Below, in pieces: positions 1 to 12,150 of a stretch of 64,000 nucleotides of DNA. The notes under the pieces were generated by a model. It searched no databases and was not told where the DNA came from. It was given only the letters and a program-made list of their open reading frames with translations. Source of the DNA: Giardia intestinalis. Its lineage: Eukaryota. The stretch lies in NCBI GenBank assembly GCA_000002435.2, contig CM018790.1; one strand, 5' to 3'. The position numbers and the translations under genes were made by a program. Position 1 is the first letter of the stretch, and each line of letters starts with the position of its first letter.

Positions 1-3000
1 TCATCGCACGGGCGGCAATCGGACGGAGCAGAGACAGAGCTCTGCGTCGAGTAGTATCCCTGGCTGCACGCGCTGCATGTAGTGGCAGATGTGCAGCGGA
101 GGCAACCAGGCACGCAGGGGATGCATTCCCTGCCGCTTGTCCAGAAGCCCTCTGCCGGACAGTCGCGGGGGCACAGGAGCATCCCGTCCAGAGTCAGCGC
201 CTTGCGTCCACTCTCGCACGCCAGACAGACGACCGGGCCCACGCGATCAGCGAGGCGGCACCTGCTGGCGCTGGAGTGGGTCGGCCTGACCTCGACGGCG
301 TTCTCGTTGCATCCTGTGCACGCTATGCTTTGCTCCCTACAGAGGCACTGCGGAGGGCAGATCTTAGGGACGCACTCTTCGCCGTTCCAGATGTGCTCTG
401 GGACGCAGCTGGTGCATCTCGTGCTTGTACACGTTGCACAGTTGTCGATCGCACACGGGATGCAGCTGCCGGCGGCCTCGTAGTACGCCACTGGACAGAC
501 TGCATGGCAGGTCACCTCTGTCCCGGTCGAGAGCGCCTTGTAGCCCGGGAGACAGTCCTTGCACAGTGCGGGGCCCGCTACCTTCGGAGCCTCACAGAGC
601 CTGCAGCCACTCACTCCCACCCAGCTGTCCCTGCCAGATGTGTCCGAGCAGGCAAGACAGGTTCCCAGGCCAGGCGTGGCGAACGTGCCAAAGTACCCCT
701 CGGCGCACTCTTTGCACCTATCAGCCCCCATACCATCGCACGTCTTGCACGCCGGGTGGCACGCAATGCAGGACGTACTCTGGAGATAGTATCCGGCCCT
801 GCAAGCGGTGCACGTGTTGGGGTCGTCTACGCACGCGCCGCAGTTGGGATCGGAGCAGCGCACGCAGCCCTTGTCTGTCTTGGAAAAGCCTGCCTCGCAT
901 GCATTGCACCCGGACGTTGACTCCGTGGTGTCTCCACAAATGCTCGTCCCCGGCGCCCTTCCCTTTGTGTAGCAGGCGCCCTCGAAGAGGAACATCCCGT
1001 CTCCGCAGTGCGAGCACACACCCTTGCTGCAGATAAGTCCCTCCTTCGGCTCTGCGCACGTGCCATCCAGGGGAACCTCTCCGTCAATCAGGCAGCGCCC
1101 GCAGACGACCTGGCCGTCGACGACCGCTGCATCGCGCTCATCACAGATGCCCGTGCCGGGGTACTCGCCTGCGGAGTAGCAGCCCCCCTGGTAGAGGAAG
1201 TAGCTCCCTCGGCACGCGGTGCAGCGGCCCTTCTTGGCGTCCTTTACGCATGGACCGGCAAGTGAGCGAGCTTCTCCAGGATAGAGTGTGCAGATGCCGT
1301 CGATCGGCACGTAATCACTCGACGCGCACTGCGAGCACAGAGACCCGTCCATGACTGTGCAGGAGCCCCAACTACAGGCATCCTGCCCCACTCTTTTGCA
1401 GGGCTTCGTGCAGTATGCCCCGGCCCCGACGCCTGTCAGCGTGTAGGGCTGAATGCATTCTGTGCAGTACTTCACGTCTATCTCGCAGCTGGCGCAGTTG
1501 GAGACGGCGCAGGACATGCACGTCAGCGTCTCCTTATTGTGACGGTAGCCGGGTCTGCACCGCCGACAGGTCCCGGCTTCGCGGCCTGTTCCAAGGACCT
1601 CGCAAATCCCACTTCCAGGAGTAGTCGTGATATCATAGCAGCCTCCCTCGTGGAAGAAGTAGTTCTCGGGACATATGACGCATAAACCGCTGGAGCACGA
1701 GACACCATCTGGCACATCCTTTGTACACAGGCCATTTATTGGAAACTCTCCTGCAAGATTGCACTGCTTGCAATATGTGCGCCCTCCGACTGTCAGAAGC
1801 TCCCTACAAATGCCAGACCCGGGAGTCGCGGCAGGGTCATAGCACCCGCCCATGTAGAGCATGTATCCGCGTAGGCACCCTGTGCAGACACCCTTCCCCT
1901 TCTCGCAAACATAGTCTGTGTCATGCCCCGTGCAAGCCCCGTTGATCGGCCACTCGTCATCCAGCGCACACCTGGAACAGTACAGCGAGCCCATCGCCGT
2001 ACAGCTGCCAGCCTTACAGTTACCAGACTCTGATCCACTGTCGTTGCAGCTTTGGATACACCGCGAGCCGTCCTCGCTAGGAATGTGCTTGTCCTTGCAT
2101 CGCGTGCAGATGACCCTCTTTGGTGCCTCGCTTGGATAGCACTCTGTGCAGCCGTCAACGCCCGTGTATCCATTTGTTCCACCTGTATCATTACATAGGA
2201 TGCAGGACTCCTTTGTGGGATCGAGCAGGCCTGTGCTGTAGTACCCGGAGGCACACGATGTGCACACTCCTGCAACCGCTGAGTCGACGGCCACTGCACA
2301 AAGCACCGTTCCAGGCGAGCGTCCTATCTCGTAGCACCCCCCGGCGTGCAGGAAGAACCTTGGTCCGCAGCGTGTGCACGACGTGGGGCTTGGTGTGGCA
2401 GCGACACATTGCGATCTGATTGCCCTAGTGTCGGTCAGTGCAACGCATGAGCCATCGATCGGGACTTCCCCGTCTTGCTTGCATTGCTTGCAGATAGTGT
2501 ACGGGCCCAGCGTAGCTTGATGCTGGCTGTCACATATGGCAGTCCCAGCTGCTGCGCCTTTAGCATAGCAGCCCCCATAGTAGAGGAGGTGCGTGTCCTT
2601 GCAAGCCGCACACGTCCCGCTGGATGGGGTTGTACGGATGCAAGCGTCGTCATTTGCCTTGCACTTTCCGTCGATGATAACGCTGCTTAATAGCGCACAG
2701 CGGCTGCATGCAAGCGTGCCGTTGACATTGCAGTATCCTGCAGCACAGGACGTGGAAAGCAATCCAACGGGGCATTCCTCAATACATATGTTATTCCTCA
2801 GTGCAAATCTATCCTTGCAGACCTTACACCCAGTACTATCGCACTTCTTACACCCGGGTGTGCATGCAACACACGAGTTCCCACTGGCATAATACCCATC
2901 CTGGCAAGAGGCGCAGGTATTTGCCGCATTGCACGTCAAGCAGTGGAGCACGCTGCAAGCAACACACTTTTCGGCCGCAAGATAAAAGCCGTCTGCGCAT

Positions 3001-6000
3001 CCCGTGCATTTTGCTGCACTATCTTGACACGTCTTGCAGCTCTTATCGCACAGCTGACAGAACTCAGCAGACTCATACATCCCATCCGGACACTTAGTAA
3101 AGCATGCAACCGTTGCAGGACTTCCATCCTTGGTTATCTGGAATGACTTAACACCCTGTTTGCACGACTTGCAGATGCCATCCTCCTTGACGGTGCAGTC
3201 ATCCGAGACCTTGCACTCCCCATCAACGGGCACCTCATCCTTCTGCTTACACTTCGCACAAAACGACCCTGCGCCCGATGTCACGACATCCTGGGCGTCG
3301 CAGATGTCCCTCGCCTCGAACGACCCCGCTTCATAGCAGCCACCCTTGTACTTGATGTATCCGTGGGCGCAGTATTTGCAGGTGCCATTAGCTTGTTCAT
3401 ATTGTATGCACACGCCTGCGGCCACTGAAGCACACACGCCGTTGACTGGGCCCTCGGCGTCAGCAGCGCACTGGGAGCAGTAGAACGTGCCCAGGACATC
3501 ACACTTGTCCTTTCTGCACCTGTGCTCCTTGGGGTCTGCCTCTGCCTCAACGCACGTTTGCACGCACTCCGTTCCCCCATTCATTGGTCTGTAGAACTGC
3601 TCGCAGGCAACACAGACCAGGAGTCCGTTGGAAACCTCGCAGCTCTTGCAGTGGGGTATGCCCTTCAGCGTGTCGCTGTTCTCTGTGCACGGAACACACG
3701 AGTCGCTGACACTTGAGCGGTCGGGGGGCGGGTAGTATCCATCCTTGCAGGTGCTGCAAATGCCGTCATGCACTCCAAGGTCTTTGCAAACCGTGTTTCC
3801 AGGAGCCCTTTCTGCCGAGACGCAGCTCCCAAGCATCAGGAAGTAGTCGCTGCTGCAATAGTAGCACGTGCCAGTGGGGACGCGGTGCAGAGTGCACACC
3901 GCAGCCTCTGTGCTGCCGGGCGTAAGGCAGTGTCCATCGACCAGAAGGTCTGTCACGACTCCGCACTGGAAGCAGTATAGCGTGTTGCCTATTAGGTTAT
4001 GCCTAACGCACGCTTTACTCCCGGGAGGCGCAGCTGGATTGTAGCACCCGCCCATGTAGAGGATGTGGGTCGTCGCACACGACGCACACGTATCATTTTG
4101 TTGTGTTTGCGGTGTGCAAACATTACTATTAGTGGAGGTACACCTTCCATCCACGAGATAATCTGACTCTAGCGAACACCTAGAACAATACTTCCCGTTG
4201 AGCACGTTGCAGTAGCCCTTCAAACACTTTCCTGTCGCCTTGCTGCTCTCCTCTACTTCTGGACAGGATTCTTCGCATCGATTCTGCTCGTTCAAGATGT
4301 ACCTATCTGCGCAGTCTGTACAGGTAGCCGGTCCTGCTGCTTTAGGAGGCAGGCATGTATCGCAGTGATCTATTCCAGTATACCCGTTGCTTCCAACTGT
4401 ATCGTTGCACGCAATGCATGAGTCTATCGCCGTGCTAGCCACCGGGTTCTTGAAGTACGATTTGCCGCACTCCTCACAGACCCCGGCCCCGACCCTGGCG
4501 CAGATATCTGAGTGTGATTCCTGCCGCATGCATATTCCCCTGTGCATAAAGTAGCCGGACCCGCATGCAGTGCACTTGCTGCTTGTGCACGTATTTCCGT
4601 CAAGTTCTGCTGTGCATGACCCATCGACAGGGTACTCGCCCGCATCATTACACGCTTTGCAATAGGCAGTGCCCTTTTCTACTATCTGACTATCTTGTTT
4701 GCAGATCTCGATCACTGGCTGGGTAATCTTATAGCACCCGCCGTAGTATAGCAGGTGGGTTGCGGCGCAGCGAAGGCATGTTCCCGAAGAGGCATTCAGA
4801 CATATGCGGGCCCGTTCTCCTCCCAACGAGCAAACTCCATCTATGGGGACCTCGTTTGCCTCGCTGCATCTGCTGCAAAAGGTGTTGTCTCGAACCGTGC
4901 ATCCTCCGTAGATACACTTCCCTGGGCCGATGCCCTCCTCACAGACTTTTTCGCAGACCTTCGACCCCTTTGTGTTGTCCTTGAGGAAGTATCCCGAGTT
5001 GCAGCTGGTGCAGGAGGCTGCATCTCCGGAACAGGCCCGGCAGTTGCTAACCTCGCAGACCTTGCATCCGTTGCCCGATGACATGTATCCATCTTCGCAC
5101 TTGGAACAGGTGCTGGTGCTGTCGTCTTCATCTTTGCAGATAAGCATGCCAGGCATGACACCCTTTCGGTAGCATCCCCCGTTGTATAGAAAGTACCCCG
5201 ATGCGCAGGATGTGCAGGCGCCATCTTGTGCACTGTGCCCATCTAGGGTGGCTGTGCATATGCCGTCAACAGGACATTCTGCAGATGTGGCGCACCTTGA
5301 ACAATAAGTGTTGGAAATGGTATTGCAGTGTCCCGTTTTGCACTGTTCCGCCCCCTCAGCCCCTTCATGACAAACCTGCACACAGCTGTTGCCCTTGAGG
5401 ACATGCCCAGTGGTGCACTTTGTGCAGATAGGCATGGTCCCGCTGGGCTTGGGGCTGCACCTCTCGCAATTTGCGACCCCTACGATTGTGATAGTGGCCA
5501 CCGGATCGTTGCAGGGCTTGCAGTAGCCGCGCCCCCCGCTGAAAACCTCAAAGTAGACATCCTTTTTGCAGGACAGGCAGCTGTCGGCAGCACCGCTACT
5601 GCATGTTTCACAGGACTGGTGGCATGGTGCGCACGTGCTGCCACTGCGGTAGTACTTGTTCCTGCACACTTTGCAGCCACCCGTGCCGTCCAGCTCGTCG
5701 CATATGACGTTCCCGGGCGACGTCTCGTTTGAGTAGCAGCCGCCTTTGTAGAGGAAGGCTTTCGCTCCACAGCTTGCACATGTCGTGTCCGTGGGTGTGA
5801 CCGCAGAGCCCCGGGACGTCACACAGCCCACTGCTGCCACCTCTTGCGCGTCGTACCTCAAACAGACCCCTGAGACAGGCACGAAGCCCGGCTGCGCACA
5901 TCGGACACAGACCGTACGCTCCTGGACCTCGGAGGTCTCTGCGCACACCTCCTGCCCCAGAGGTTCTGCTACGCTATAGCAGCCTCCCTGAAAGAGCAAA

Positions 6001-6929
6001 TGCCCCTTGGCACAGACACTACAGGTGCCGTTGGGGGGATCGAATGGGGTGCAGATCTTCTTGTCATCTGCAGAGACGCATTTCCCATCAATAAGAAGGT
6101 CGCTACTGCTAGCGCACTGAGAGCAGTATCTGTTATTCAGCGCGGTGCACATGCTTGTTTTGCATTTGGTTGCCTGGCTATCGTGCTCATCACATGTCTG
6201 CGTACATCTTTTGGCAGTAAGGTCGTACGAGTACTTGCTCACGCATACACTGCAATCCTCTGGTCTTTCGCCTGTGCATGTGGCACAGTTGTCAGCGCAA
6301 GCGGTGCACTTACCCTCTTTAATGAAGTACTTTTCTTTACATAGAGTGCAAGTGATCTCGTCGGAGTTTTGAGAGCACTGTGCACAAGCTGTTACTCCAC
6401 CATCTGCAGCAGAGCACTCCTTACATTCGTTATTCTTGAGAAACCGATCTGACCGGCAACTGAGGCAGGACTGAGCAGTGTTGCTTGTGCACGTGGCGCA
6501 TGTGGAGTGGCAGGGCTTGCACTGGTGAATGCTGGATGTCGTGTCTAGAAAGAATCCATCTACACACAGCGTGCAGTATCCTGATGTAGCAGTTCTGCAT
6601 ATGCGGTTTCCGGGGCTATAGAGCACGTTATAGCACCCTCCCTCGTGGAGAAAGTAGCTTCCGTCGCGGCAAAGTTCGCACTTCCTGGCAGAGGTACTCA
6701 GCGGAGCCCCTACGCTGCCTCCGCAACCAGATGCTACTGCCCTGGGGTCAGTGAGGGGGATGCACACCCCGTTAATAGGCACCTCTCCGGGGATTGCACA
6801 CTCGGCGCAATATTGCCCGTCCAAAACTTTACAATTGTTTTCTGCACAGATAGCTGTATCTCGATCAGAGCCTGCAGCTTGGATGCATATCGAAAGAGCC
6901 GCGCCTATCAGCTCAAGAAAAAGAATCAT
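1..6929 (-). CDS. Giant cysteine-rich surface protein (VSP / high-cysteine membrane protein-like), 5' portion. ATG at complement(6927..6929); C-terminus lies beyond the window's left edge.
   Basis: Reverse-complement translation from ATG(6929) gives a signal-peptide-like start (MILFLELIGAALSICIQAAGS...). Dense CXXC motifs and repeated GGCY motifs follow (HEGGCYNV, FQGGCYSV, YKGGCYSN), plus PIDG/PVDG-x-C modules. The ORF track lists no minus-strand ORF at all in this frame (start coordinate = 2 mod 3) between 1 and 6929, even though the frame contains many Met codons. The track therefore drops ORFs lacking an in-window stop, so this frame is open for all 2309 codons. The plus-strand ORFs in the same region are antisense artefacts. 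The family call (Giardia VSP/HCMP) is from established motif knowledge. Confidence 0.8.
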   Translation of the reverse strand, partial: MILFLELIGAALSICIQAAGSDRDTAICAENNCKVLDGQYCAECAIPGEVPINGVCIPLTDPRAVASGCGGSVGAPLSTSARKCELCRDGSYFLHEGGCYNVLYSPGNRICRTATSGYCTLCVDGFFLDTTSSIHQCKPCHSTCATCTSNTAQSCLSCRSDRFLKNNECKECSAADGGVTACAQCSQNSDEITCTLCKEKYFIKEGKCTACADNCATCTGERPEDCSVCVSKYSYDLTAKRCTQTCDEHDSQATKCKTSMCTALNNRYCSQCASSSDLLIDGKCVSADDKKICTPFDPPNGTCSVCAKGHLLFQGGCYSVAEPLGQEVCAETSEVQERTVCVRCAQPGFVPVSGVCLRYDAQEVAAVGCVTSRGSAVTPTDTTCASCGAKAFLYKGGCYSNETSPGNVICDELDGTGGCKVCRNKYYRSGSTCAPCHQSCETCSSGAADSCLSCKKDVYFEVFSGGRGYCKPCNDPVATITIVGVANCERCSPKPSGTMPICTKCTTGHVLKGNSCVQVCHEGAEGAEQCKTGHCNTISNTYCSRCATSAECPVDGICTATLDGHSAQDGACTSCASGYFLYNGGCYRKGVMPGMLICKDEDDSTSTCSKCEDGYMSSGNGCKVCEVSNCRACSGDAASCTSCNSGYFLKDNTKGSKVCEKVCEEGIGPGKCIYGGCTVRDNTFCSRCSEANEVPIDGVCSLGGERARICLNASSGTCLRCAATHLLYYGGCYKITQPVIEICKQDSQIVEKGTAYCKACNDAGEYPVDGSCTAELDGNTCTSSKCTACGSGYFMHRGICMRQESHSDICARVGAGVCEECGKSYFKNPVASTAIDSCIACNDTVGSNGYTGIDHCDTCLPPKAAGPATCTDCADRYILNEQNRCEESCPEVEESSKATGKCLKGYCNVLNGKYCSRCSLESDYLVDGRCTSTNSNVCTPQTQQNDTCASCATTHILYMGGCYNPAAPPGSKACVRHNLIGNTLYCFQCGVVTDLLVDGHCLTPGSTEAAVCTLHRVPTGTCYYCSSDYFLMLGSCVSAERAPGNTVCKDLGVHDGICSTCKDGYYPPPDRSSVSDSCVPCTENSDTLKGIPHCKSCEVSNGLLVCVACEQFYRPMNGGTECVQTCVEAEADPKEHRCRKDKCDVLGTFYCSQCAADAEGPVNGVCASVAAGVCIQYEQANGTCKYCAHGYIKYKGGCYEAGSFEARDICDAQDVVTSGAGSFCAKCKQKDEVPVDGECKVSDDCTVKEDGICKSCKQGVKSFQITKDGSPATVACFTKCPDGMYESAEFCQLCDKSCKTCQDSAAKCTGCADGFYLAAEKCVACSVLHCLTCNAANTCASCQDGYYASGNSCVACTPGCKKCDSTGCKVCKDRFALRNNICIEECPVGLLSTSCAAGYCNVNGTLACSRCALLSSVIIDGKCKANDDACIRTTPSSGTCAACKDTHLLYYGGCYAKGAAAGTAICDSQHQATLGPYTICKQCKQDGEVPIDGSCVALTDTRAIRSQCVAATPSPTSCTRCGPRFFLHAGGCYEIGRSPGTVLCAVAVDSAVAGVCTSCASGYYSTGLLDPTKESCILCNDTGGTNGYTGVDGCTECYPSEAPKRVICTRCKDKHIPSEDGSRCIQSCNDSGSESGNCKAGSCTAMGSLYCSRCALDDEWPINGACTGHDTDYVCEKGKGVCTGCLRGYMLYMGGCYDPAATPGSGICRELLTVGGRTYCKQCNLAGEFPINGLCTKDVPDGVSCSSGLCVICPENYFFHEGGCYDITTTPGSGICEVLGTGREAGTCRRCRPGYRHNKETLTCMSCAVSNCASCEIDVKYCTECIQPYTLTGVGAGAYCTKPCKRVGQDACSWGSCTVMDGSLCSQCASSDYVPIDGICTLYPGEARSLAGPCVKDAKKGRCTACRGSYFLYQGGCYSAGEYPGTGICDERDAAVVDGQVVCGRCLIDGEVPLDGTCAEPKEGLICSKGVCSHCGDGMFLFEGACYTKGRAPGTSICGDTTESTSGCNACEAGFSKTDKGCVRCSDPNCGACVDDPNTCTACRAGYYLQSTSCIACHPACKTCDGMGADRCKECAEGYFGTFATPGLGTCLACSDTSGRDSWVGVSGCRLCEAPKVAGPALCKDCLPGYKALSTGTEVTCHAVCPVAYYEAAGSCIPCAIDNCATCTSTRCTSCVPEHIWNGEECVPKICPPQCLCREQSIACTGCNENAVEVRPTHSSASRCRLADRVGPVVCLACESGRKALTLDGMLLCPRDCPAEGFWTSGRECIPCVPGCLRCTSATTCSACSQGYYSTQSSVSAPSDCRPCD

Positions 6930-7140
6930 TGATTCCTTTTAAATTTGCAAATTGCTGGATAATATCACTATTGCAAAAAGCTCTAAGTGATGATCCCAGA
7001 TAAATCTATGTACATTTATCTCACGCATCTGAATTTAAAAAACTGACCTCTTCATTGGACATATTATTTGAAACCTAATTATTATGAAATGAAACAATAT
7101 ATTCCGGTCTTTAGGCAGCTCGAATATACGAGGATTCCCC
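6930..7140. promoter_or_regulatory. AT-rich bidirectional intergenic region between two divergent genes (Cys-rich gene on minus, 1669-aa gene on plus)
   Basis: A 211-bp AT-rich spacer (e.g. ttaaatttgcaaatt, aatttaaaaaac, attattatgaaatgaaacaatatatt) flanked by two divergent ATGs. Giardia promoters are short AT-rich elements close to the ATG. This is inference from composition only. Confidence 0.4.
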
Positions 7141-10100
7141 ATGCCACCGTGCACAGTGGAGCTATCCTTGTACTTTCTTGCCTGGGATAAGGTATATGCG
7201 TATTTGCGCTATAGAGATTTACCAATCTTCAATAAGACTGGCAGGCACGAACCGCTCGGTGTGTTTTTCCCTGCCGGACGTCCGTGTCTCATTAAGTACC
7301 AAAACGTTGAGCTGGCCGGGGAAAAGCTTGATGCAGAGTGGTCTGCTGCCTGCAAACCCACAGCTAGCTCTCCAAAAATGCTTTTTATATCTGATCATGC
7401 AGAGCCAGTCGAGGGCCTGTCTGAGCTTAGCCTTGCTGCGGTCTACTCTGTTGGCGGAGACATCTTTTTTGGTGACAGGAGCTTCCTGATATCTAGATTT
7501 GAAGGCTTTTTTCCCATACCAGAGATGTACGCCACATCGGCTGCTCAACTTAGCGGATTTGAATTTATTGTAAAGGACGTTCACCTATATATCTCCAAGG
7601 CTCTGCTAATTGCTTTGCATTCGGGCGACTCTGCTGCTTTGAACGCTCTTCCAGAACAGGGTGTTTTGCACCAGATGAGAACGTCCATTCGAGGAATTTC
7701 GTCTCTGAGCGCGTCACTTGTGGCATCTGTGGAGCTCCAGGAACAGGAGTACAACGAGAACCTGGAGGCACTTGCTACCCTTATAGTTCCCGAGAGTGTT
7801 CAACGTTCTTCCTCCTGTCCCGATTCTGAGTCTAGCTTGTTTACACAATTGGCTAGTTTGCTTGGAGATGTTTTTATGCCGATCTATCTGTTTGATTTCT
7901 CTAAGGGAAAGCCACCCTCTGTCGATTCGTCAGAACCCACTTTGCAAGCATACCAGGGAGAAAGGTTCTTCATTTCTCTTGTTGCTGATGTCGAGGTATA
8001 TAGTAAGCCCAGCAGCTTGACGTGGATTCACAGGACAACAACGCCGTGCTTTTGCGGCACCACTTTACGCTTTTTTCTCGATGACATGTATAAGATAATT
8101 CAGTTATTTTTTCAAAAAATTGAGCTACAGCCGGTTATTTATTTATACCCTGCGGCCACAATGAATGATTGCAACGCAGAAATAGACCTTGTTCAGTATT
8201 CTTCTAAATCAGGGTTGTTTGGGGCAGTTGTTTTAGTTCCCTTCCTTTGCACGCACGCGTTTCTATCGTCTGCGGAAGCTTGCATTGATGTAGCTGCTAA
8301 TATCTTTACTTATTGCTTTCTGTCCTGGGCGGTTAGCTCTATTCTCTCATATAGTACGACGCATACCAGAATGAAGAGCTCCCTGACGGATTTCTTCATG
8401 CTGTCCCTTTTCTATCAATATAAGTCTTTAATTCTATCGTTTCTAAGCGATTCCGGACTCTGCATGGACGCCTATCATACCTATGACCCACAACTCTTGG
8501 AATACACCGCTATCGACAGGCTGATGAAAGATATACATGCACTACGGCAGATGACGTATTACAGATATGATCGGAGGCTTGATCTGCAAATTTATGAGTT
8601 CATAATCTCTCTCCACAAGAGCGCGTCTCTTGATCTATACAGCTCTCAGACGTCTAGTAAGTATCTCAGTGACATGGCAAAGCTGCTTGCGTTTTCTTTG
8701 AGCCTGGATCTTCCATCCAGTATTCTCACAAACACCTGGGCGCAAGATAACATCATAAAAGAGGTTGAGTGTGCGTTTTTCTCTCCAATCCTGACACGAT
8801 ATGTCGCATTACACGATGGTTCCCATGCACTGCATACCAAGAATCGCACCGCTACGTCCTCTAACTCGCACATGAGCTTCTTGCCGACGGTGATGTTTGT
8901 TTGCGGACCAACCGACAAGACCTATGCAACTTACTTTGAACAGCATGCAGATCCAGTACGTTCCATTTTCTCGCGGCCACCTCAATCTGGTTCATCTCAG
9001 AACTCCGTTTTTTCTTGCTTAAAGACCTTGCTACTGCTTCCTAGTAATGTCATTGGATTATCTTCCTCATGTCCACAGTTAAGATCTATGAAGGACGTCC
9101 TCATGGATACTAAGGACGTCTTTGCGGAGATTGCTACTTACTTGAGTCCGCCGATGACATACACGTTTTCTCTTCTTGAAAATGATCACATCAAGCTTAC
9201 TACGTACTCTAAGCATGTCATTTTGTCCGCCTCTACCATCTATGCGCAGTTCTATTCTAAGCTATATACTCTTCCACAAGTCACCGTGCAATCTGAGCTA
9301 CTAAGATTGGCCGAAAGTCTATCAATTATTAATACAATACCCTCGAAATTATCATGTCTTTTCTGCCCCCATTACACGCGAAATGCATTTTTTCTTCAAA
9401 TCATGACTCCTAAGGCACTTAAATCCCTGCACCAGCAAGAGATGCCTGACGATGGACAAGTCAAGGCCCCAGATGGGATCTTGTGTATTGGCACTGCTGC
9501 CCAAGAATGTTCTCAATCCCTCTCCGCAGCGGTTGAGCTGACGAAGATCATCAGCTCCACACACAACCAGGCTAGAGTGCTGGAGCAACTATACACGGGG
9601 TCTCACCACGAAGACCGTCATCTGTCTATGTTGACTCACTTTGACTCTAATTTCTCAATACCCTTTTCTAGCCTAAGGCTTTTACTCGACAAGAAGGTTC
9701 AAAATGAGCGGCCTATAGTGGTGTTCAAAGCAGAGCTTAACTTAATTTTCAAAAGCATTAGCGCAAGCACCGGTGAGTACTTTTCTACCAGTGGGGCCTC
9801 ATCTCCGGCACCTCTTACTGACGTTATGTTTGTGCACATCCTCCATCCAGGCTCATTTAGAGACCTTGCTAAAGTCTTCTATGCTAGAGACTTCTCTAAT
9901 TTGCAATTGAATTCTGGCATTGTAGTGTCCTATCCTTCTACCAACTGCTTTGTCGCACGGCATGCACGAAGCGGTATTCTTGGCATAGTTGAACCTTTTC
10001 TGCTGTTTGTCTGCCCCCGTGGTAATCCACCCGATCCATTGCGGCTCGTAGAGGCTTTGAATATGTCTGCCAGAAACGCACATCTGCATTTCCTATACAA

Positions 10101-12150
10101 AATTGGGGCGGAGCTCTCCCAGATGGGCACCATCAACGCTGATTTAATAGACATCATCATGTCCACTGTGGAGACGCAAGGAATCTTCAGCCAGCTCAGT
10201 ATCTATTTCCTTGTTATGTCCAAGCTTCTCTTCGTTCTTAGAAGCATTATTTTGAATGAAACCTCATCTGTAACCTCGTCCCTGCGACGGGCAGCAGCCT
10301 CTTATCTTTATCTCATTGGTGACCGCGTCTGGTTGATAGACTACCTGACCACCCTTTTACGGATCATCCGACACTATACAGACCAATCTTCTGCTATTGT
10401 TGCAGCCGGTATAGTCAAGTCACTACTGCCTATCTTTTGCCGGGTGGACGCAGGCCTCTACCTGCTGCTGCAGCTTTGTATTCGAGGTGTCTGTAGCAAG
10501 GAGCGCAAGGCACTGGATACTAATCGTGACGGACTTAGAACTGTGGTATTAACAGACGCAGAGTGCCGCTGCAACTTAGTTTATAATATGGATTTCTGTG
10601 CACAAGTCCTGCGCAATGCGGCCATCTTTTCCTACACTAGAGCCACTGGTCCCACGGTGTCATCATTCGACTTGCAGCGCTCCTGTTCGCCAACCTGCTT
10701 GTGTGATCTAGATGGGCAGAAGTTGTCGTCTGGCTGTGAGGGCAAGCCAAAAACAGCGTGTACCCTCCGGACCATGCTCGGCATTCGGCAAAAGGTGACA
10801 GACCTCATCGATCTGTTGATGAATCCCGCATCGGTACACAGTCTCAGGGTTATAAAGTCTCTCGATGACGTGTCAGAATTGGTACAGTCCGTTTTATTCT
10901 ATGCAGTAACGCGTATCCGTCTATTTTCTGAAATGGAGTGGCTATTGAAGCTCCCATCCATATGCGAGACCATATATATCTATATAGGTAGGTATTCAGA
11001 AGGCACTGATCTCCTGTGCACCCAATCAGATATTGCTAAGTGCCCTGAGCCCATCAGGACGAAGGTCCAAACAATTCACTTTCAAATGCTTGCCAATCTA
11101 TTATCCATACCGGTAAAGCAACATGCGCTCGTGGTTGTTGAACAAGCTGAACGTAGCTCTTCACCCTATTGGACCACCATGCACCAGCTGCTTTCTCACT
11201 TAGTGCATGTCAATGTACCAATTAGCGAGTTCACCCTATCATCTGTGCTGCACCTACTGGTCAAGTTAGGGACAGACCTACACTTAGCTCCACAGTGCCG
11301 ACAAATGGCACTTCAACTGGCGTACATACTGCTATCACGCACTAACGTTGTAACACCTGTAGCACCAGCTCACTTTTTATACATAAACATTATCATAGGC
11401 GCTTTTGGGACTCGCAGGGCGATCCACTCTTTGACGTTTCTGGAATGGACGCTTGAGGTCCAACCCTACATTACGTACTTTATGAATAATTTTGGAGGCT
11501 ACGCGTTCAACCCCCAGCGGCCCTCTATTCCGCGCATTTTCTCATTCATGGAGCCAGCCTGTCCCGATTGTTTCTTCGGCACATGCACATGTTCATTTCT
11601 TTCTGATTCGTTGTACTATAGGAGCGTCAGGGAGATGGCTCATGAACCGTTCCTGAAGAAGATGCTTGCGCTAGGCCAGACGGTCCTTTCTATGATGAAC
11701 ATGCCTATAGCCATTTGCGGGGACATGCGGATATATGAGGACTATGAACAATCATTTACATCACGAATTGAGGAGCTGCGCAAGCCGCGGATTGAAGAGC
11801 GAATGGACTTCATAGCAAAAATTATGCGGAGCCCGGAGGAGCCACAGGATGTGGACAACCCGTCGCAGCAAATGCTGACAAGCACGGAGCTGGCCCGAGA
11901 AGAGATGCGATTAATTCAAGGATACTGTATGCATTCTCAAGACGGAGAGCTCCGCTTGTTGGCACAGCATGTTCTGAAGCTAATCACCTTGATATTGGGG
12001 GACACAATTGCAAAGTATGATGTCCCTGGGACGGGAAAACTTATTCTTCGTGACGCACCCCATAAAAATAAAATGCTGGACAAGTCGGAATTAGTTCTAA
12101 TACACTTCAGAGACAGATGCATCTGTATGAGATCATATTCCAACCCCTAA
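7141..12150 (+). CDS. Large hypothetical protein (1669 aa), predominantly alpha-helical, no recognisable catalytic motif
   Basis: A long uninterrupted ORF starting at a true ATG (7141), with an AT-rich upstream region. Its TAA stop is 5 nt from the stop of the convergent gene. No family recognised by eye. Confidence 0.7.
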   Translation: MPPCTVELSLYFLAWDKVYAYLRYRDLPIFNKTGRHEPLGVFFPAGRPCLIKYQNVELAGEKLDAEWSAACKPTASSPKMLFISDHAEPVEGLSELSLAAVYSVGGDIFFGDRSFLISRFEGFFPIPEMYATSAAQLSGFEFIVKDVHLYISKALLIALHSGDSAALNALPEQGVLHQMRTSIRGISSLSASLVASVELQEQEYNENLEALATLIVPESVQRSSSCPDSESSLFTQLASLLGDVFMPIYLFDFSKGKPPSVDSSEPTLQAYQGERFFISLVADVEVYSKPSSLTWIHRTTTPCFCGTTLRFFLDDMYKIIQLFFQKIELQPVIYLYPAATMNDCNAEIDLVQYSSKSGLFGAVVLVPFLCTHAFLSSAEACIDVAANIFTYCFLSWAVSSILSYSTTHTRMKSSLTDFFMLSLFYQYKSLILSFLSDSGLCMDAYHTYDPQLLEYTAIDRLMKDIHALRQMTYYRYDRRLDLQIYEFIISLHKSASLDLYSSQTSSKYLSDMAKLLAFSLSLDLPSSILTNTWAQDNIIKEVECAFFSPILTRYVALHDGSHALHTKNRTATSSNSHMSFLPTVMFVCGPTDKTYATYFEQHADPVRSIFSRPPQSGSSQNSVFSCLKTLLLLPSNVIGLSSSCPQLRSMKDVLMDTKDVFAEIATYLSPPMTYTFSLLENDHIKLTTYSKHVILSASTIYAQFYSKLYTLPQVTVQSELLRLAESLSIINTIPSKLSCLFCPHYTRNAFFLQIMTPKALKSLHQQEMPDDGQVKAPDGILCIGTAAQECSQSLSAAVELTKIISSTHNQARVLEQLYTGSHHEDRHLSMLTHFDSNFSIPFSSLRLLLDKKVQNERPIVVFKAELNLIFKSISASTGEYFSTSGASSPAPLTDVMFVHILHPGSFRDLAKVFYARDFSNLQLNSGIVVSYPSTNCFVARHARSGILGIVEPFLLFVCPRGNPPDPLRLVEALNMSARNAHLHFLYKIGAELSQMGTINADLIDIIMSTVETQGIFSQLSIYFLVMSKLLFVLRSIILNETSSVTSSLRRAAASYLYLIGDRVWLIDYLTTLLRIIRHYTDQSSAIVAAGIVKSLLPIFCRVDAGLYLLLQLCIRGVCSKERKALDTNRDGLRTVVLTDAECRCNLVYNMDFCAQVLRNAAIFSYTRATGPTVSSFDLQRSCSPTCLCDLDGQKLSSGCEGKPKTACTLRTMLGIRQKVTDLIDLLMNPASVHSLRVIKSLDDVSELVQSVLFYAVTRIRLFSEMEWLLKLPSICETIYIYIGRYSEGTDLLCTQSDIAKCPEPIRTKVQTIHFQMLANLLSIPVKQHALVVVEQAERSSSPYWTTMHQLLSHLVHVNVPISEFTLSSVLHLLVKLGTDLHLAPQCRQMALQLAYILLSRTNVVTPVAPAHFLYINIIIGAFGTRRAIHSLTFLEWTLEVQPYITYFMNNFGGYAFNPQRPSIPRIFSFMEPACPDCFFGTCTCSFLSDSLYYRSVREMAHEPFLKKMLALGQTVLSMMNMPIAICGDMRIYEDYEQSFTSRIEELRKPRIEERMDFIAKIMRSPEEPQDVDNPSQQMLTSTELAREEMRLIQGYCMHSQDGELRLLAQHVLKLITLILGDTIAKYDVPGTGKLILRDAPHKNKMLDKSELVLIHFRDRCICMRSYSNP

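What the first reader, a model, noticed from the sequence alone, without database searches (positions are those of the whole stretch)
1..6929. Cysteine-rich surface-protein gene of at least 2309 codons (GGCY/CXXC), hidden from the ORF track because it runs off the window
The minus-strand frame beginning at ATG 6929 encodes continuous VSP/HCMP-type modules (CXXC pairs, GGCY, PIDG-x-C) for the whole 6.9 kb, with no stop before the window edge. Canonical VSPs are a few hundred residues. A coding region over 2300 aa places this among the very largest high-cysteine membrane proteins. The ORF track shows only short antisense ORFs here, which would mislead an automated annotation. Its C-terminus is outside the window, so it cannot be seen whether the protein ends in the invariant VSP tail (CRGKA) or a different HCMP-type tail.
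Basis: seen in the sequence. Interest (0 to 1): 0.5.

Follow-up and report, generated by a model that had tools for sequence, protein, structure and literature searches.

The report
Known giant Giardia cysteine-rich membrane protein

Summary
Observation confirmed. Complement(1..6929), read from ATG 6929, gives 2309 codons with no stop. The product is 13.1% Cys, with 97 CxxC and 12 GGCY, and matches Pfam VSP at E=1.8e-161.

The window is Giardia intestinalis WB chromosome 2. The translation is identical to residues 1-2309 of XP_001708230.2/KAE8302064.1, which is GL50803_113416 (2516 aa, 262 kDa). Davids et al. 2006 described this gene as one of three "TMK-like" HCMps, the three largest in their table.

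The 207 residues outside the window contain one transmembrane segment and the tail KRGCAGNGSLQPLTI, not CRGKA. The start context is CAatgAT, not the VSP PyAatgTT. It is therefore an HCMP/CRMP, not a VSP, and it has no kinase domain.

The ectodomain consists of nine diverged supermodules of 142-274 aa, with no DNA tandem repeats. An AlphaFold2 model of one supermodule (pLDDT 84.6) is a beta-hairpin ladder. Its nearest solved folds are R-spondin furin-like repeats, but those matches are weak.

The gene is under purifying selection: dN/dS is 0.14 against the syntenic P15 orthologue, and all 327 Cys are conserved.

Side observations:
- The C-terminal ~1450 aa evolve in concert with paralogues on other chromosomes.
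- This copy has a 21-aa deletion.
- Short-read assemblies break 138 nt into the gene.

Novelty: already known. Interest: low.

The parts
1..6929 (-). Codons 1-2309 (plus 2 bases of codon 2310) of GL50803_113416, HCMP 'TMK-like'. The full CDS is 7551 nt / 2516 aa, and the last 622 nt lie left of the window.
   Evidence: No stop in 2309 codons. Identical to residues 1-2309 of P0025 = KAE8302064.1/XP_001708230.2. Locus tag, chromosome 2 (NC_051857.1) and CDS length come from published tables.
6876..6929 (-). Signal peptide, residues 1-18 (MILFLELIGAALSICIQA).
   Evidence: Hydrophobic N-terminus, Kyte-Doolittle >1.6. The signal peptide is listed for this gene in the supplementary table of bioRxiv 10.1101/2022.03.07.483299.
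6930..7140 (.). A 211-bp AT-rich (32% GC) divergent intergenic region shared with GL50803_87112 (7141-12150, + strand). It contains AAATTTAAAA at 6937-6946 (-8 to -17 from the ATG), the start context CAatgAT, and an in-frame TAA at 6939-6941.
   Evidence: Sequence and GC content. It is 92% identical to the P15 orthologous spacer, whereas synonymous sites of the gene differ at 38%. That this is the promoter is an inference.
6165..6848 (-). Supermodule 1 (aa 28-255).
   Evidence: Head motif CxxxxCxVxxxxYCxxC found by regex. Alignment of the nine modules.
5343..6164 (-). Supermodule 2 (aa 256-529).
4917..5342 (-). Supermodule 3 (aa 530-671), a short form lacking the second PxDGxC/GxC unit.
4227..4916 (-). 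Supermodule 4 (aa 672-901).
3519..4226 (-). Supermodule 5 (aa 902-1137).
2748..3518 (-). Supermodule 6 (aa 1138-1394).
2019..2747 (-). Supermodule 7 (aa 1395-1637), the one modelled with AlphaFold2.
1377..2018 (-). Supermodule 8 (aa 1638-1851).
630..1376 (-). Supermodule 9 (aa 1852-2100).
3..629 (-). Membrane-proximal region made only of CxxC repeats (aa 2101-2309, continuing to aa ~2460 outside the window), with no GGCY or head motifs.
   Evidence: Motif positions and full-length sequence.
255..260 (-). Junction of a 21-codon in-frame deletion specific to this copy, between codons 2224 (258-260) and 2225 (255-257). It removes RCLLCNDAGAGGGWTGVDGCQ, one CxxC-ND-x-G[WY]TG-x-x-CxxC motif.
   Evidence: The segment is present in all six relatives compared, including the DH orthologue. 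Junction coordinates. Both the 2007 and 2020 WB protein versions are 2516 aa.
1..3710 (-). Tract from aa ~1075 to the C-terminus that is ~96% identical in protein to paralogue GL50803_113319 (chr 5), whose N-terminal 1060 aa are only ~46% identical.
   Evidence: Sliding-window and partitioned identities.

Best explanation
The region is the 5' 92% of GL50803_113416 on chromosome 2 of Giardia intestinalis WB. [quoted passage not shown]

Shown here:
- A signal peptide of 18 aa.
- An ectodomain of ~2450 aa built from nine diverged supermodules. Each has a head CxxxxCxVxxxxYCSxCAxxxExP[IV][DN]GxC, one or two GxCxxC...LYxGGCY...PGxxIC units, and then CxxC furin-like repeats. A membrane-proximal stretch made only of CxxC repeats follows.
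- One TM helix and a 15-18-aa cytoplasmic tail with two Cys (the count depends on where the TM helix is taken to end) and no CRGKA.
- No kinase or other enzymatic domain.

Inferred mechanism: the protein enters the secretory pathway and is anchored in the trophozoite plasma membrane. There it displays a long, rigid, protease-resistant rod of stacked beta-hairpins held together by disulfide bonds and/or metal coordination. It belongs to the non-variant cysteine-rich surface coat, which is mildly induced on host-cell contact, and not to the mutually exclusive VSP switching system. Its tail cysteines are candidate palmitoylation sites. It cannot signal as a receptor kinase.
For: Identity:
- The neighbouring ORF 7141-12150 is exactly GL50803_0087112 (KAE8302065.1), and the next accession, KAE8302064.1, is the 2516-aa TMK-like HCMP.
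- The window translation equals its first 2309 residues.
- Mass, %Cys, CxxC/CxC/GGCY counts, TM and tail match ORF 113416 in Davids 2006 Tables 1 and 3.
- The published CDS start string is identical to the window.

Family:
- Pfam VSP is the only domain found, at E=2e-175 over 17 stretches.

Architecture:
-.
- AlphaFold2 model with pLDDT 84.6, all beta-hairpins.
- R-spondin furin-like repeats are the top solved folds.

Functional constraint:
- dN/dS is 0.14 against the P15 orthologue, which is syntenic: Dopey - 87112 orthologue - HCMP.
- 327/327 Cys are conserved while non-Cys identity is 83.5%.

Expression:
- Fold change 1.5-1.6 at 3 and 4.5 h on Caco-2 cells (PMC7461913 supplement).
- Transcripts were detected in clonal RNA-seq, and peptides were detected but are not unique to this copy (bioRxiv 10.1101/2022.03.07.483299 supplements).
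- 113416 is named in a proteomics figure legend (PMC7775365).

Surface location, by analogy:
- Three other HCMPs tagged at the C-terminus localise to the plasma membrane (PMC7461913).
- Paralogue 113319 was found in the co-culture secretome (PMC5739509).
Against: - Nothing has been tested for this protein itself: no localisation, topology, disulfide or metal state, or ligand is known.
- Sense transcripts are low in axenic clones (2-6 TPM), and antisense TPM is far higher (345-524, normalised within the antisense pool).
- Peptides are not unique to this copy, so translation of this paralogue specifically is unproven.
- The figure legend naming 113416 conflicts with that paper's text, which names 115066.
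- The C-terminal 207 residues, stop codon and poly(A) signal are not in the window. They were taken from the deposited protein and, for the 3' signal, from the P15 orthologue.
Confidence: 0.9

Rival explanations
1. It is a giant canonical VSP that takes part in antigenic variation.
For: The Pfam VSP domain scores very strongly. GGCY and CxxC motifs are present. DH-isolate orthologues are named 'Variant-specific surface protein' in GenBank. The TM segment starts like the VSP one (GAI[TA]GI...VGG).
Against: The tail is KRGCAGNGSLQPLTI, not CRGKA. The start context is CAatgAT in WB and TAatgAT in P15, not PyAatgTT; the consensus is taken. The TM lacks the conserved FLCWWF end. The P15 orthologue has only the core AGTAAAT overlapping its stop, not ACTTAGRTAGTRAAYRY. 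The gene is conserved and syntenic between assemblages A and E. It was classified as a CRMP, not a VSP, in the 2022 reclassification.
Confidence: 0.02
2. It is a transmembrane receptor kinase like the Entamoeba TMKs, as the name 'TMK-like' suggests.
For: The ectodomain aligns with an Entamoeba invadens TMK (P0005) over ~1550 columns at 23% identity, E=4e-28. P0005 also matches the supermodule profile at E=3e-50. Davids 2006 grouped the gene by an HMM of the TMK ectodomain.
Against: P0005 carries Pkinase/PK_Tyr_Ser-Thr domains at residues 2233-2490. P0025 has no Pfam hit other than VSP, and only 15-18 residues follow its TM segment. The alignment is dominated by Cys spacing.
Confidence: 0.02
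3. It is a pseudogene or an assembly artefact: a collapsed or chimeric copy of near-identical paralogues.
For: Three paralogues are 95-96% identical over kilobases. Short-read contigs from many runs break 138 nt into the gene. This copy alone lacks 21 aa. Sense expression is low and antisense is high.
Against: The frame is uninterrupted for 2516 codons. dN/dS is 0.14 and all Cys are conserved against the syntenic P15 orthologue. Both WB protein versions are 2516 aa and differ at only 3 residues. The deletion is in frame and removes exactly one motif unit.
Confidence: 0.04
4. The mature product acts mainly as a shed or secreted ectodomain rather than as a membrane-anchored coat protein.
For: Paralogue 113319 and other HCMPs were detected in the secretome during co-culture. 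HCMP 7715 signal was lost from cells after 3 h with host cells.
Against: There are no data for 113416. A TM anchor and a Cys-containing tail are conserved between WB and P15. Secretome detection may reflect vesicles or lysis.
Confidence: 0.15

Closest known systems
GL50803_114180 (chr 3) and GL50803_113319 (chr 5), the other two 'TMK-like' HCMps of Giardia WB (Davids et al. 2006)
   Same: Same length class (2539 and 2529 aa), 13% Cys, 110 CxxC, 11-12 GGCY, and the same TM type. 114180 is 95% identical from residue 35 onward. 113319 is ~96% identical from residue ~1075 onward.
   Different: Each has a different signal peptide and first ~34 residues. 113319 has a 46%-identical N-terminal 1060 aa and a different tail (KHKSQASGLRPLTA). 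113416 lacks the 21-aa motif that both others carry.
EFO64966.1, 'High cysteine membrane TMK-like protein' of Giardia P15 (assemblage E), the syntenic orthologue
   Same: 85.7% aa and 86% nt identity, same neighbours, identical tail CKRGCAGNGSLQPLTI, and all 327 Cys conserved.
   Different: It is 2537 aa because it keeps the 21-aa motif.
HCNCp (GL50803_40376), the founding HCMp
   Same: It is the best non-TMK-like hit of the supermodule profile (E=1.6e-111, 17 stretches). It is also a type I protein, Cys-rich, with GGCY, and without CRGKA.
   Different: It is 1609 aa with 8 CxC and the tail CCRRSKAV, is induced in encystation and localises to the cyst. No such data exist for 113416.
Giardia VSPs (Pfam PF03302)
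   Same: They share the ectodomain repeat chemistry (CxxC, GGCY), a signal peptide, a single C-terminal TM and a very short tail.
   Different: 113416 has no CRGKA, no PyAatgTT and a divergent TM. It is 4-5 times longer than a typical VSP (mean 556 aa without repeats) and is conserved across assemblages instead of variable.
Entamoeba transmembrane kinases (TMKs)
   Same: They have a large CxxC-rich ectodomain of similar length with detectable similarity.
   Different: TMKs carry a cytoplasmic kinase domain; 113416 has none.
Furin-like cysteine-rich repeats (R-spondin Fu1-Fu2; the Cys-rich region of PCSK5/PC6B)
   Same: R-spondin repeats are the top solved-structure matches of the modelled supermodule. 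PCSK5 proteins appear among the sequence hits. Davids 2006 scored one PC6B repeat in each TMK-like HCMp.

Membership tests
Giardia HCMP/HCMp (criteria of Davids et al. 2006) | At least 400 aa | tested here: met
   2309 codons in the window; 2516 aa in full.
Giardia HCMP/HCMp (criteria of Davids et al. 2006) | At least 10% cysteine | tested here: met
   13.1% in the window part; 13.0% in the full protein.
Giardia HCMP/HCMp (criteria of Davids et al. 2006) | At least 20 CxxC and/or CxC motifs | tested here: met
   97 CxxC and 1 CxC in the window; 108 and 1 in the full protein.
Giardia HCMP/HCMp (criteria of Davids et al. 2006) | Type I membrane protein: N-terminal signal peptide plus a single C-terminal TM | tested here: met
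   Hydropathy peaks occur at residues 1-21 and 2471-2502, plus one marginal two-window peak at 1541-1542, inside the Cys-rich ectodomain, which I do not read as a TM segment. The TM lies outside the window and was read from the deposited protein, which is identical over the 2309 shared residues. The published signal-peptide and TM calls agree.
Giardia HCMP/HCMp (criteria of Davids et al. 2006) | Lacks the VSP tail CRGKA | tested here: met
   The tail is ...TVCKRGCAGNGSLQPLTI, and CRGKA occurs nowhere in the protein.
Giardia VSP | C-terminal CRGKA cytoplasmic tail | tested here: not met
Giardia VSP | Inr/Kozak-like PyAatgTT at the start codon | tested here: not met
   WB has CAatgAT and P15 has TAatgAT, with A instead of T at +4. 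The consensus is from PMC2996952 and the 2022 bioRxiv paper.
Giardia VSP | Extended poly(A) signal ACTTAGRTAGTRAAYRY | not testable with these tools
   The 3' end lies outside the window and no DNA for it could be fetched. The syntenic P15 orthologue has ACAATTTAGTAAATTT, which is the core AGTAAAT only.
Giardia VSP | Highly conserved VSP TM ([25 protein letters not shown]) | tested here: not met
   The TM is AITGITLGVAVLVGGAIGLALGL. It shares the GAIxGI...VGG start but lacks FLCWWF.
Giardia VSP | Pfam PF03302 ectodomain | tested here: met
   E=1.8e-161 (window part) and 2e-175 (full protein), against a cut-off of 31.4 bits.
Giardia VSP | Mutually exclusive expression | not testable with these tools
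   Only published bulk or clonal TPM values were seen: 2-6 TPM sense in all seven libraries.
'TMK-like' HCMp group (Davids 2006) | Similarity to the Entamoeba TMK ectodomain; about 110 CxxC, 11-12 GGCY, about 262-266 kDa | tested here: met
   BLASTP against an E. invadens TMK gives E=4e-28. Counts and mass are identical to the table row for ORF 113416.
Entamoeba-type transmembrane kinase | Cytoplasmic protein kinase domain | tested here: not met
   P0025 has no kinase hit even at E<=1 and has a 15-18-aa tail. P0005 has Pkinase at E=1e-45.

The most novel reading that the evidence does not exclude
The three giant TMK-like HCMPs may form a concerted-evolution set. A membrane-proximal 'stalk' of ~1450 aa (window ~1-3710) would be kept 96-98% identical between copies on different chromosomes by ongoing interchromosomal gene conversion, independently in assemblages A and E and with the same boundary near residue 1075. 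Two alternative ~1070-aa membrane-distal 'heads' (type a: 113416/114180; type b: 113319) would stay only 46% identical to each other while being conserved at 85-88% between assemblages. That pattern would point to a fixed scaffold carrying two distinct, selectively maintained outer ends. I did not find this described in the papers I read. The evidence here is at protein level only.
Probability: 0.5. Interest if true: 0.3.

Novelty: already known. Interest (0 to 1): 0.1.

Why it matters
For the genome scan, this is a correct call about a gene that has been annotated since 2007 and described in print since 2006, so it adds no new biology. It does show that ORF lists which drop edge-crossing frames hide the largest genes. 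It also shows that short-read assemblies cannot resolve this paralogue trio, so isolate comparisons and RNA-seq or proteomic assignments for 113416, 114180 and 113319 need long reads or reads that map uniquely to one copy. HCMPs as a family matter because they are the Giardia gene family most strongly regulated during host-cell contact and have no known function. The giant TMK-like members have not been studied experimentally.

Tried and rejected
- **Extending the sequence leftwards.** Looking up the neighbour 87112 returned only Logan contigs that begin at window 6792, 138 nt into the gene. Looking up the full protein P0025 found no record. The C-terminus was therefore taken from the deposited protein, and the 3' signal from the P15 orthologue.
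- **Self-BLASTP of the protein.** It gave no off-diagonal HSPs at E<=1e-5. I split the protein at a head-motif regex and aligned the modules instead.
- **DNA-level repeats.** Tandem Repeats Finder found only one trivial 15-nt, 2-copy hit. The direct-repeat search found only the reverse complement of the LYxGGCY motif. There is no recent tandem amplification.
- **Bacterial promoter and terminator scan of the spacer.** It gave chance-level results and does not apply to Giardia.
- **PDB sequence search.** No hits.
- **Fold searches.** Only weak furin-like, EGF-like and TNFR-like hits. They were used as a description, not as a classification.
- **High antisense signal.** I considered it special to this gene, but the source paper reports that most CRMPs have more antisense than sense reads. 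It is recorded only as a side note.
- **Other cysteine-rich genes in the window.** None: the other large ORFs are 0.8-3.2% Cys.
Full report
**Observation.**
Translating the minus strand of window 1-6929 from ATG 6929 gives 2309 codons without a stop. The other five frames of the same stretch contain 32-100 stops, and their longest open run is 305 codons. An in-frame TAA at 6941-6939 sits four codons upstream, so 6929 is the first possible ATG.

The product is 13.1% Cys, with 97 CxxC, 12 GGCY, 14 [IV][DN]GxC, one CxC and no CC. It matches Pfam VSP (PF03302) at E=1.8e-161 in 14 stretches.

The ORF lister shows only ORFs of 80-214 aa here, because it omits ORFs that run off the source. The gene being 'hidden' is a property of the window, not of the genome annotation.

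**Identity.**
The neighbouring ORF 7141-12150 (+ strand) is, residue for residue, GL50803_0087112 (KAE8302065.1) of Giardia intestinalis WB, on a 1.54-Mb record. [quoted passage not shown] The window translation equals its first 2309 residues exactly.

Published supplementary tables give the locus tag GL50803_(00)113416, chromosome 2 (NC_051857.1), and a CDS of 7551 nt. They also list 327 Cys, 108 CxxC, 1 CxC, the signal peptide MILFLELIGAALSICIQA, one TM segment and the tail KRGCAGNGSLQPLTI. The printed start of the CDS is identical to the window.

The same gene is ORF 113416 in Davids et al. 2006 (PMC1762436). That entry gives 262.0 kDa, 13% Cys, 108 CxxC, 1 CxC, 12 GGCY, and membership of the MEME group 'TMK-like'. 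My own counts on the protein agree. In their Table 1 the three TMK-like ORFs (262.0, 263.8 and 265.7 kDa) are the largest of 61 HCMps, and the next is 220.5 kDa.

**The part outside the window.**
The missing 207 residues continue the CxxC repeats and end in ...GPGAITGITLGVAVLVGGAIGLALGLTVCKRGCAGNGSLQPLTI. Hydropathy peaks above threshold occur at the N-terminus and at residues 2471-2502, apart from one marginal two-window peak at residues 1541-1542, inside the Cys-rich ectodomain, which I do not read as a TM segment. There is no CRGKA.

I could not fetch the DNA itself. The full protein is not on record in the contig index, and all short-read contigs stop inside the gene.

The syntenic P15 orthologue lies in the order Dopey - 87112 orthologue - HCMP. 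It ends ...CAATTTAGTAAATTT, so the ordinary Giardia signal AGTAAAT overlaps the stop codon. It lacks the extended VSP signal ACTTAGRTAGTRAAYRY.

**VSP or HCMP?**
Three defining features of VSPs were tested and not met:
- The tail is not CRGKA.
- The start context is CAatgAT in WB and TAatgAT in P15, against the consensus PyAatgTT.
- The TM segment lacks the conserved FLCWWF end.

All five HCMp criteria of Davids 2006 are met. The gene was also placed among the CRMPs in the 2022 reclassification.

'TMK-like' refers only to the ectodomain. An Entamoeba invadens TMK aligns at 23% identity (E=4e-28) but carries a kinase domain at residues 2233-2490. The Giardia protein has no Pfam hit other than VSP and has 15-18 residues after the TM segment.

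**Anatomy.**
A head motif (CxxxxCxVxxxxYC[SA]xC) recurs at residues 28, 256, 530, 672, 902, 1138, 1395, 1638 and 1852. Cutting the protein at these points gives nine supermodules of 142-274 aa that align with 22 invariant positions, 18 of them Cys. They are 26-42% identical to one another.

Each supermodule has three kinds of unit:
- the head, continuing ...CAxxxExP[IV][DN]GxC;
- one or two units of the form GxCxxC...LYxGGCY...PGxxIC;
- CxxC repeats of the furin-like kind.

From residue ~2100 to the TM segment only CxxC repeats remain. There are no tandem repeats at DNA level, so the duplications are old.

A profile of the supermodule finds 3307 proteins at E<=0.001 among 1.84 billion representatives. 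The best hit outside the TMK-like cluster is HCNCp, followed by unnamed giants from metagenomes and Tetrahymena proteins. This fits the taxonomic picture in Davids 2006.

**Is it functional?**
Against the P15 orthologue, dS is 0.53, dN is 0.072 and dN/dS is 0.14, and the ratio is the same in both halves of the gene. All 327 Cys are conserved while the remaining residues are 83.5% identical. 325 of the 327 Cys are also conserved in the paralogue lineage whose N-terminal half is only 46% identical.

The 211-bp spacer shared with 87112 is 32% GC. It is 92% identical between WB and P15, which is more conserved than synonymous sites. It carries AAATTTAAAA at -8 to -17 from the ATG. Reading this spacer as a constrained divergent promoter is an inference.

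Published expression data show:
- a fold change of 1.5-1.6 after 3-4.5 h on Caco-2 cells;
- sense TPM of 2-6 in axenic clones, with much higher antisense TPM;
- peptides detected, but not unique to this copy.

Other HCMPs tagged at the C-terminus localise to the plasma membrane. Paralogue 113319 was detected in the co-culture secretome.

**Most likely mechanism.**
The protein is most likely a type I plasma-membrane protein. It would present a long, rigid rod of cysteine-stabilised beta-hairpins as part of the non-variant cysteine-rich coat, with mild induction on host contact. The tail Cys residues are possible palmitoylation sites; that idea comes from Davids 2006 and is not tested. It has no kinase signalling.

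The sequence features are shown here. The localisation, the stabilising chemistry and the role are inferred by analogy.

**Rivals.**
The readings as a VSP, a receptor kinase, or a pseudogene/assembly artefact are each contradicted by tests made here. A reading as a shed ectodomain remains possible.

**Side observations.**
1. In the last ~1450 residues, paralogues within one genome are 96-98% identical (WB 113416 vs 113319: 96.4%; P15 a vs b: 97.7%), while orthologues between assemblages are ~86% identical. In the first ~1060 residues the a and b types are 46% identical within a genome and 85-88% identical between assemblages. This is the signature of gene conversion after the split of assemblages A and E, with a shared boundary near residue 1075 (window ~3710).
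2. WB 113416 alone lacks RCLLCNDAGAGGGWTGVDGCQ, with the junction at window 257/258.
3. Five of the six Logan contigs shown start at window 6792, ~33 nt after the point (codon 35) where 113416 becomes identical to 114180. This is a typical de Bruijn graph branch.
4. GC rises from 0.50 at the 5' end to 0.64 at the 3' end of the gene, and GC3 rises from 0.53 to 0.76.

**Verdict.**
The object is an already known, annotated and published gene. Interest for discovery is low.

Noticed in passing
window 1-3710 (codons ~1075-2309 and beyond): Concerted evolution. The C-terminal ~1450 aa are 96-98% identical between paralogues on different chromosomes within WB and within P15, but only ~86% identical between assemblages. 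The N-terminal ~1060 aa of the a-type and b-type copies are 46% identical within a genome and 85-88% between assemblages. This suggests interchromosomal gene conversion with a fixed boundary.
   Followed up: partly
window 255-260 (between codons 2224 and 2225): An in-frame 21-codon deletion (RCLLCNDAGAGGGWTGVDGCQ) is unique to WB 113416 among the seven relatives compared. It removes one motif unit and two CxxC. Both the 2007 and 2020 WB protein versions are 2516 aa.
   Followed up: partly
window 6792 (codon 46); loci L001, L002, L004-L006: Short-read (Logan) contigs from many sequencing runs all end at the same base, ~33 nt after the sequence becomes identical to paralogue 114180. The gene is therefore absent from short-read assemblies, and the exact full-length protein has no contig record.
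   Followed up: yes
window 1-6929, + strand (antisense to the gene): Published strand-specific RNA-seq (bioRxiv 10.1101/2022.03.07.483299, Table S9) gives sense TPM of 2-6 but antisense TPM of 345-524 for 113416. The paralogues 114180 and 113319 show antisense TPM of 5-16. The source paper says an excess of antisense is common among CRMPs. The origin of the + strand transcript is unknown.
   Followed up: partly
window 6930-7140: The divergent 211-bp spacer between the HCMP gene and GL50803_87112 is 92% identical between WB and P15. Synonymous sites of the HCMP gene differ at 38% (dS 0.53), so the spacer appears to be constrained.
   Followed up: partly
window 1-7000: There is a GC gradient along the gene: 0.50 at the 5' end to 0.64 at the 3' end, with GC3 rising from 0.53 to 0.76. 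The highest values fall in the part shared with the paralogues. This is compatible with GC-biased gene conversion, which was not tested.
   Followed up: no
PMC7775365, Figure 4 legend versus text: The proteomics paper names HCMPs 115066 and 25816 in the text but 25816 and 113416 in the figure legend. Its evidence for 113416 protein is therefore ambiguous.
   Followed up: no
window 7141-64000: The rest of the window holds ordinary low-Cys genes (0.8-3.2% Cys), including 87112, a Dopey_N protein, V-ATPase subunit C and ankyrin proteins. The HCMP gene therefore borders a conserved core region that is syntenic with P15 rather than a VSP cluster, at least on this side.
   Followed up: partly
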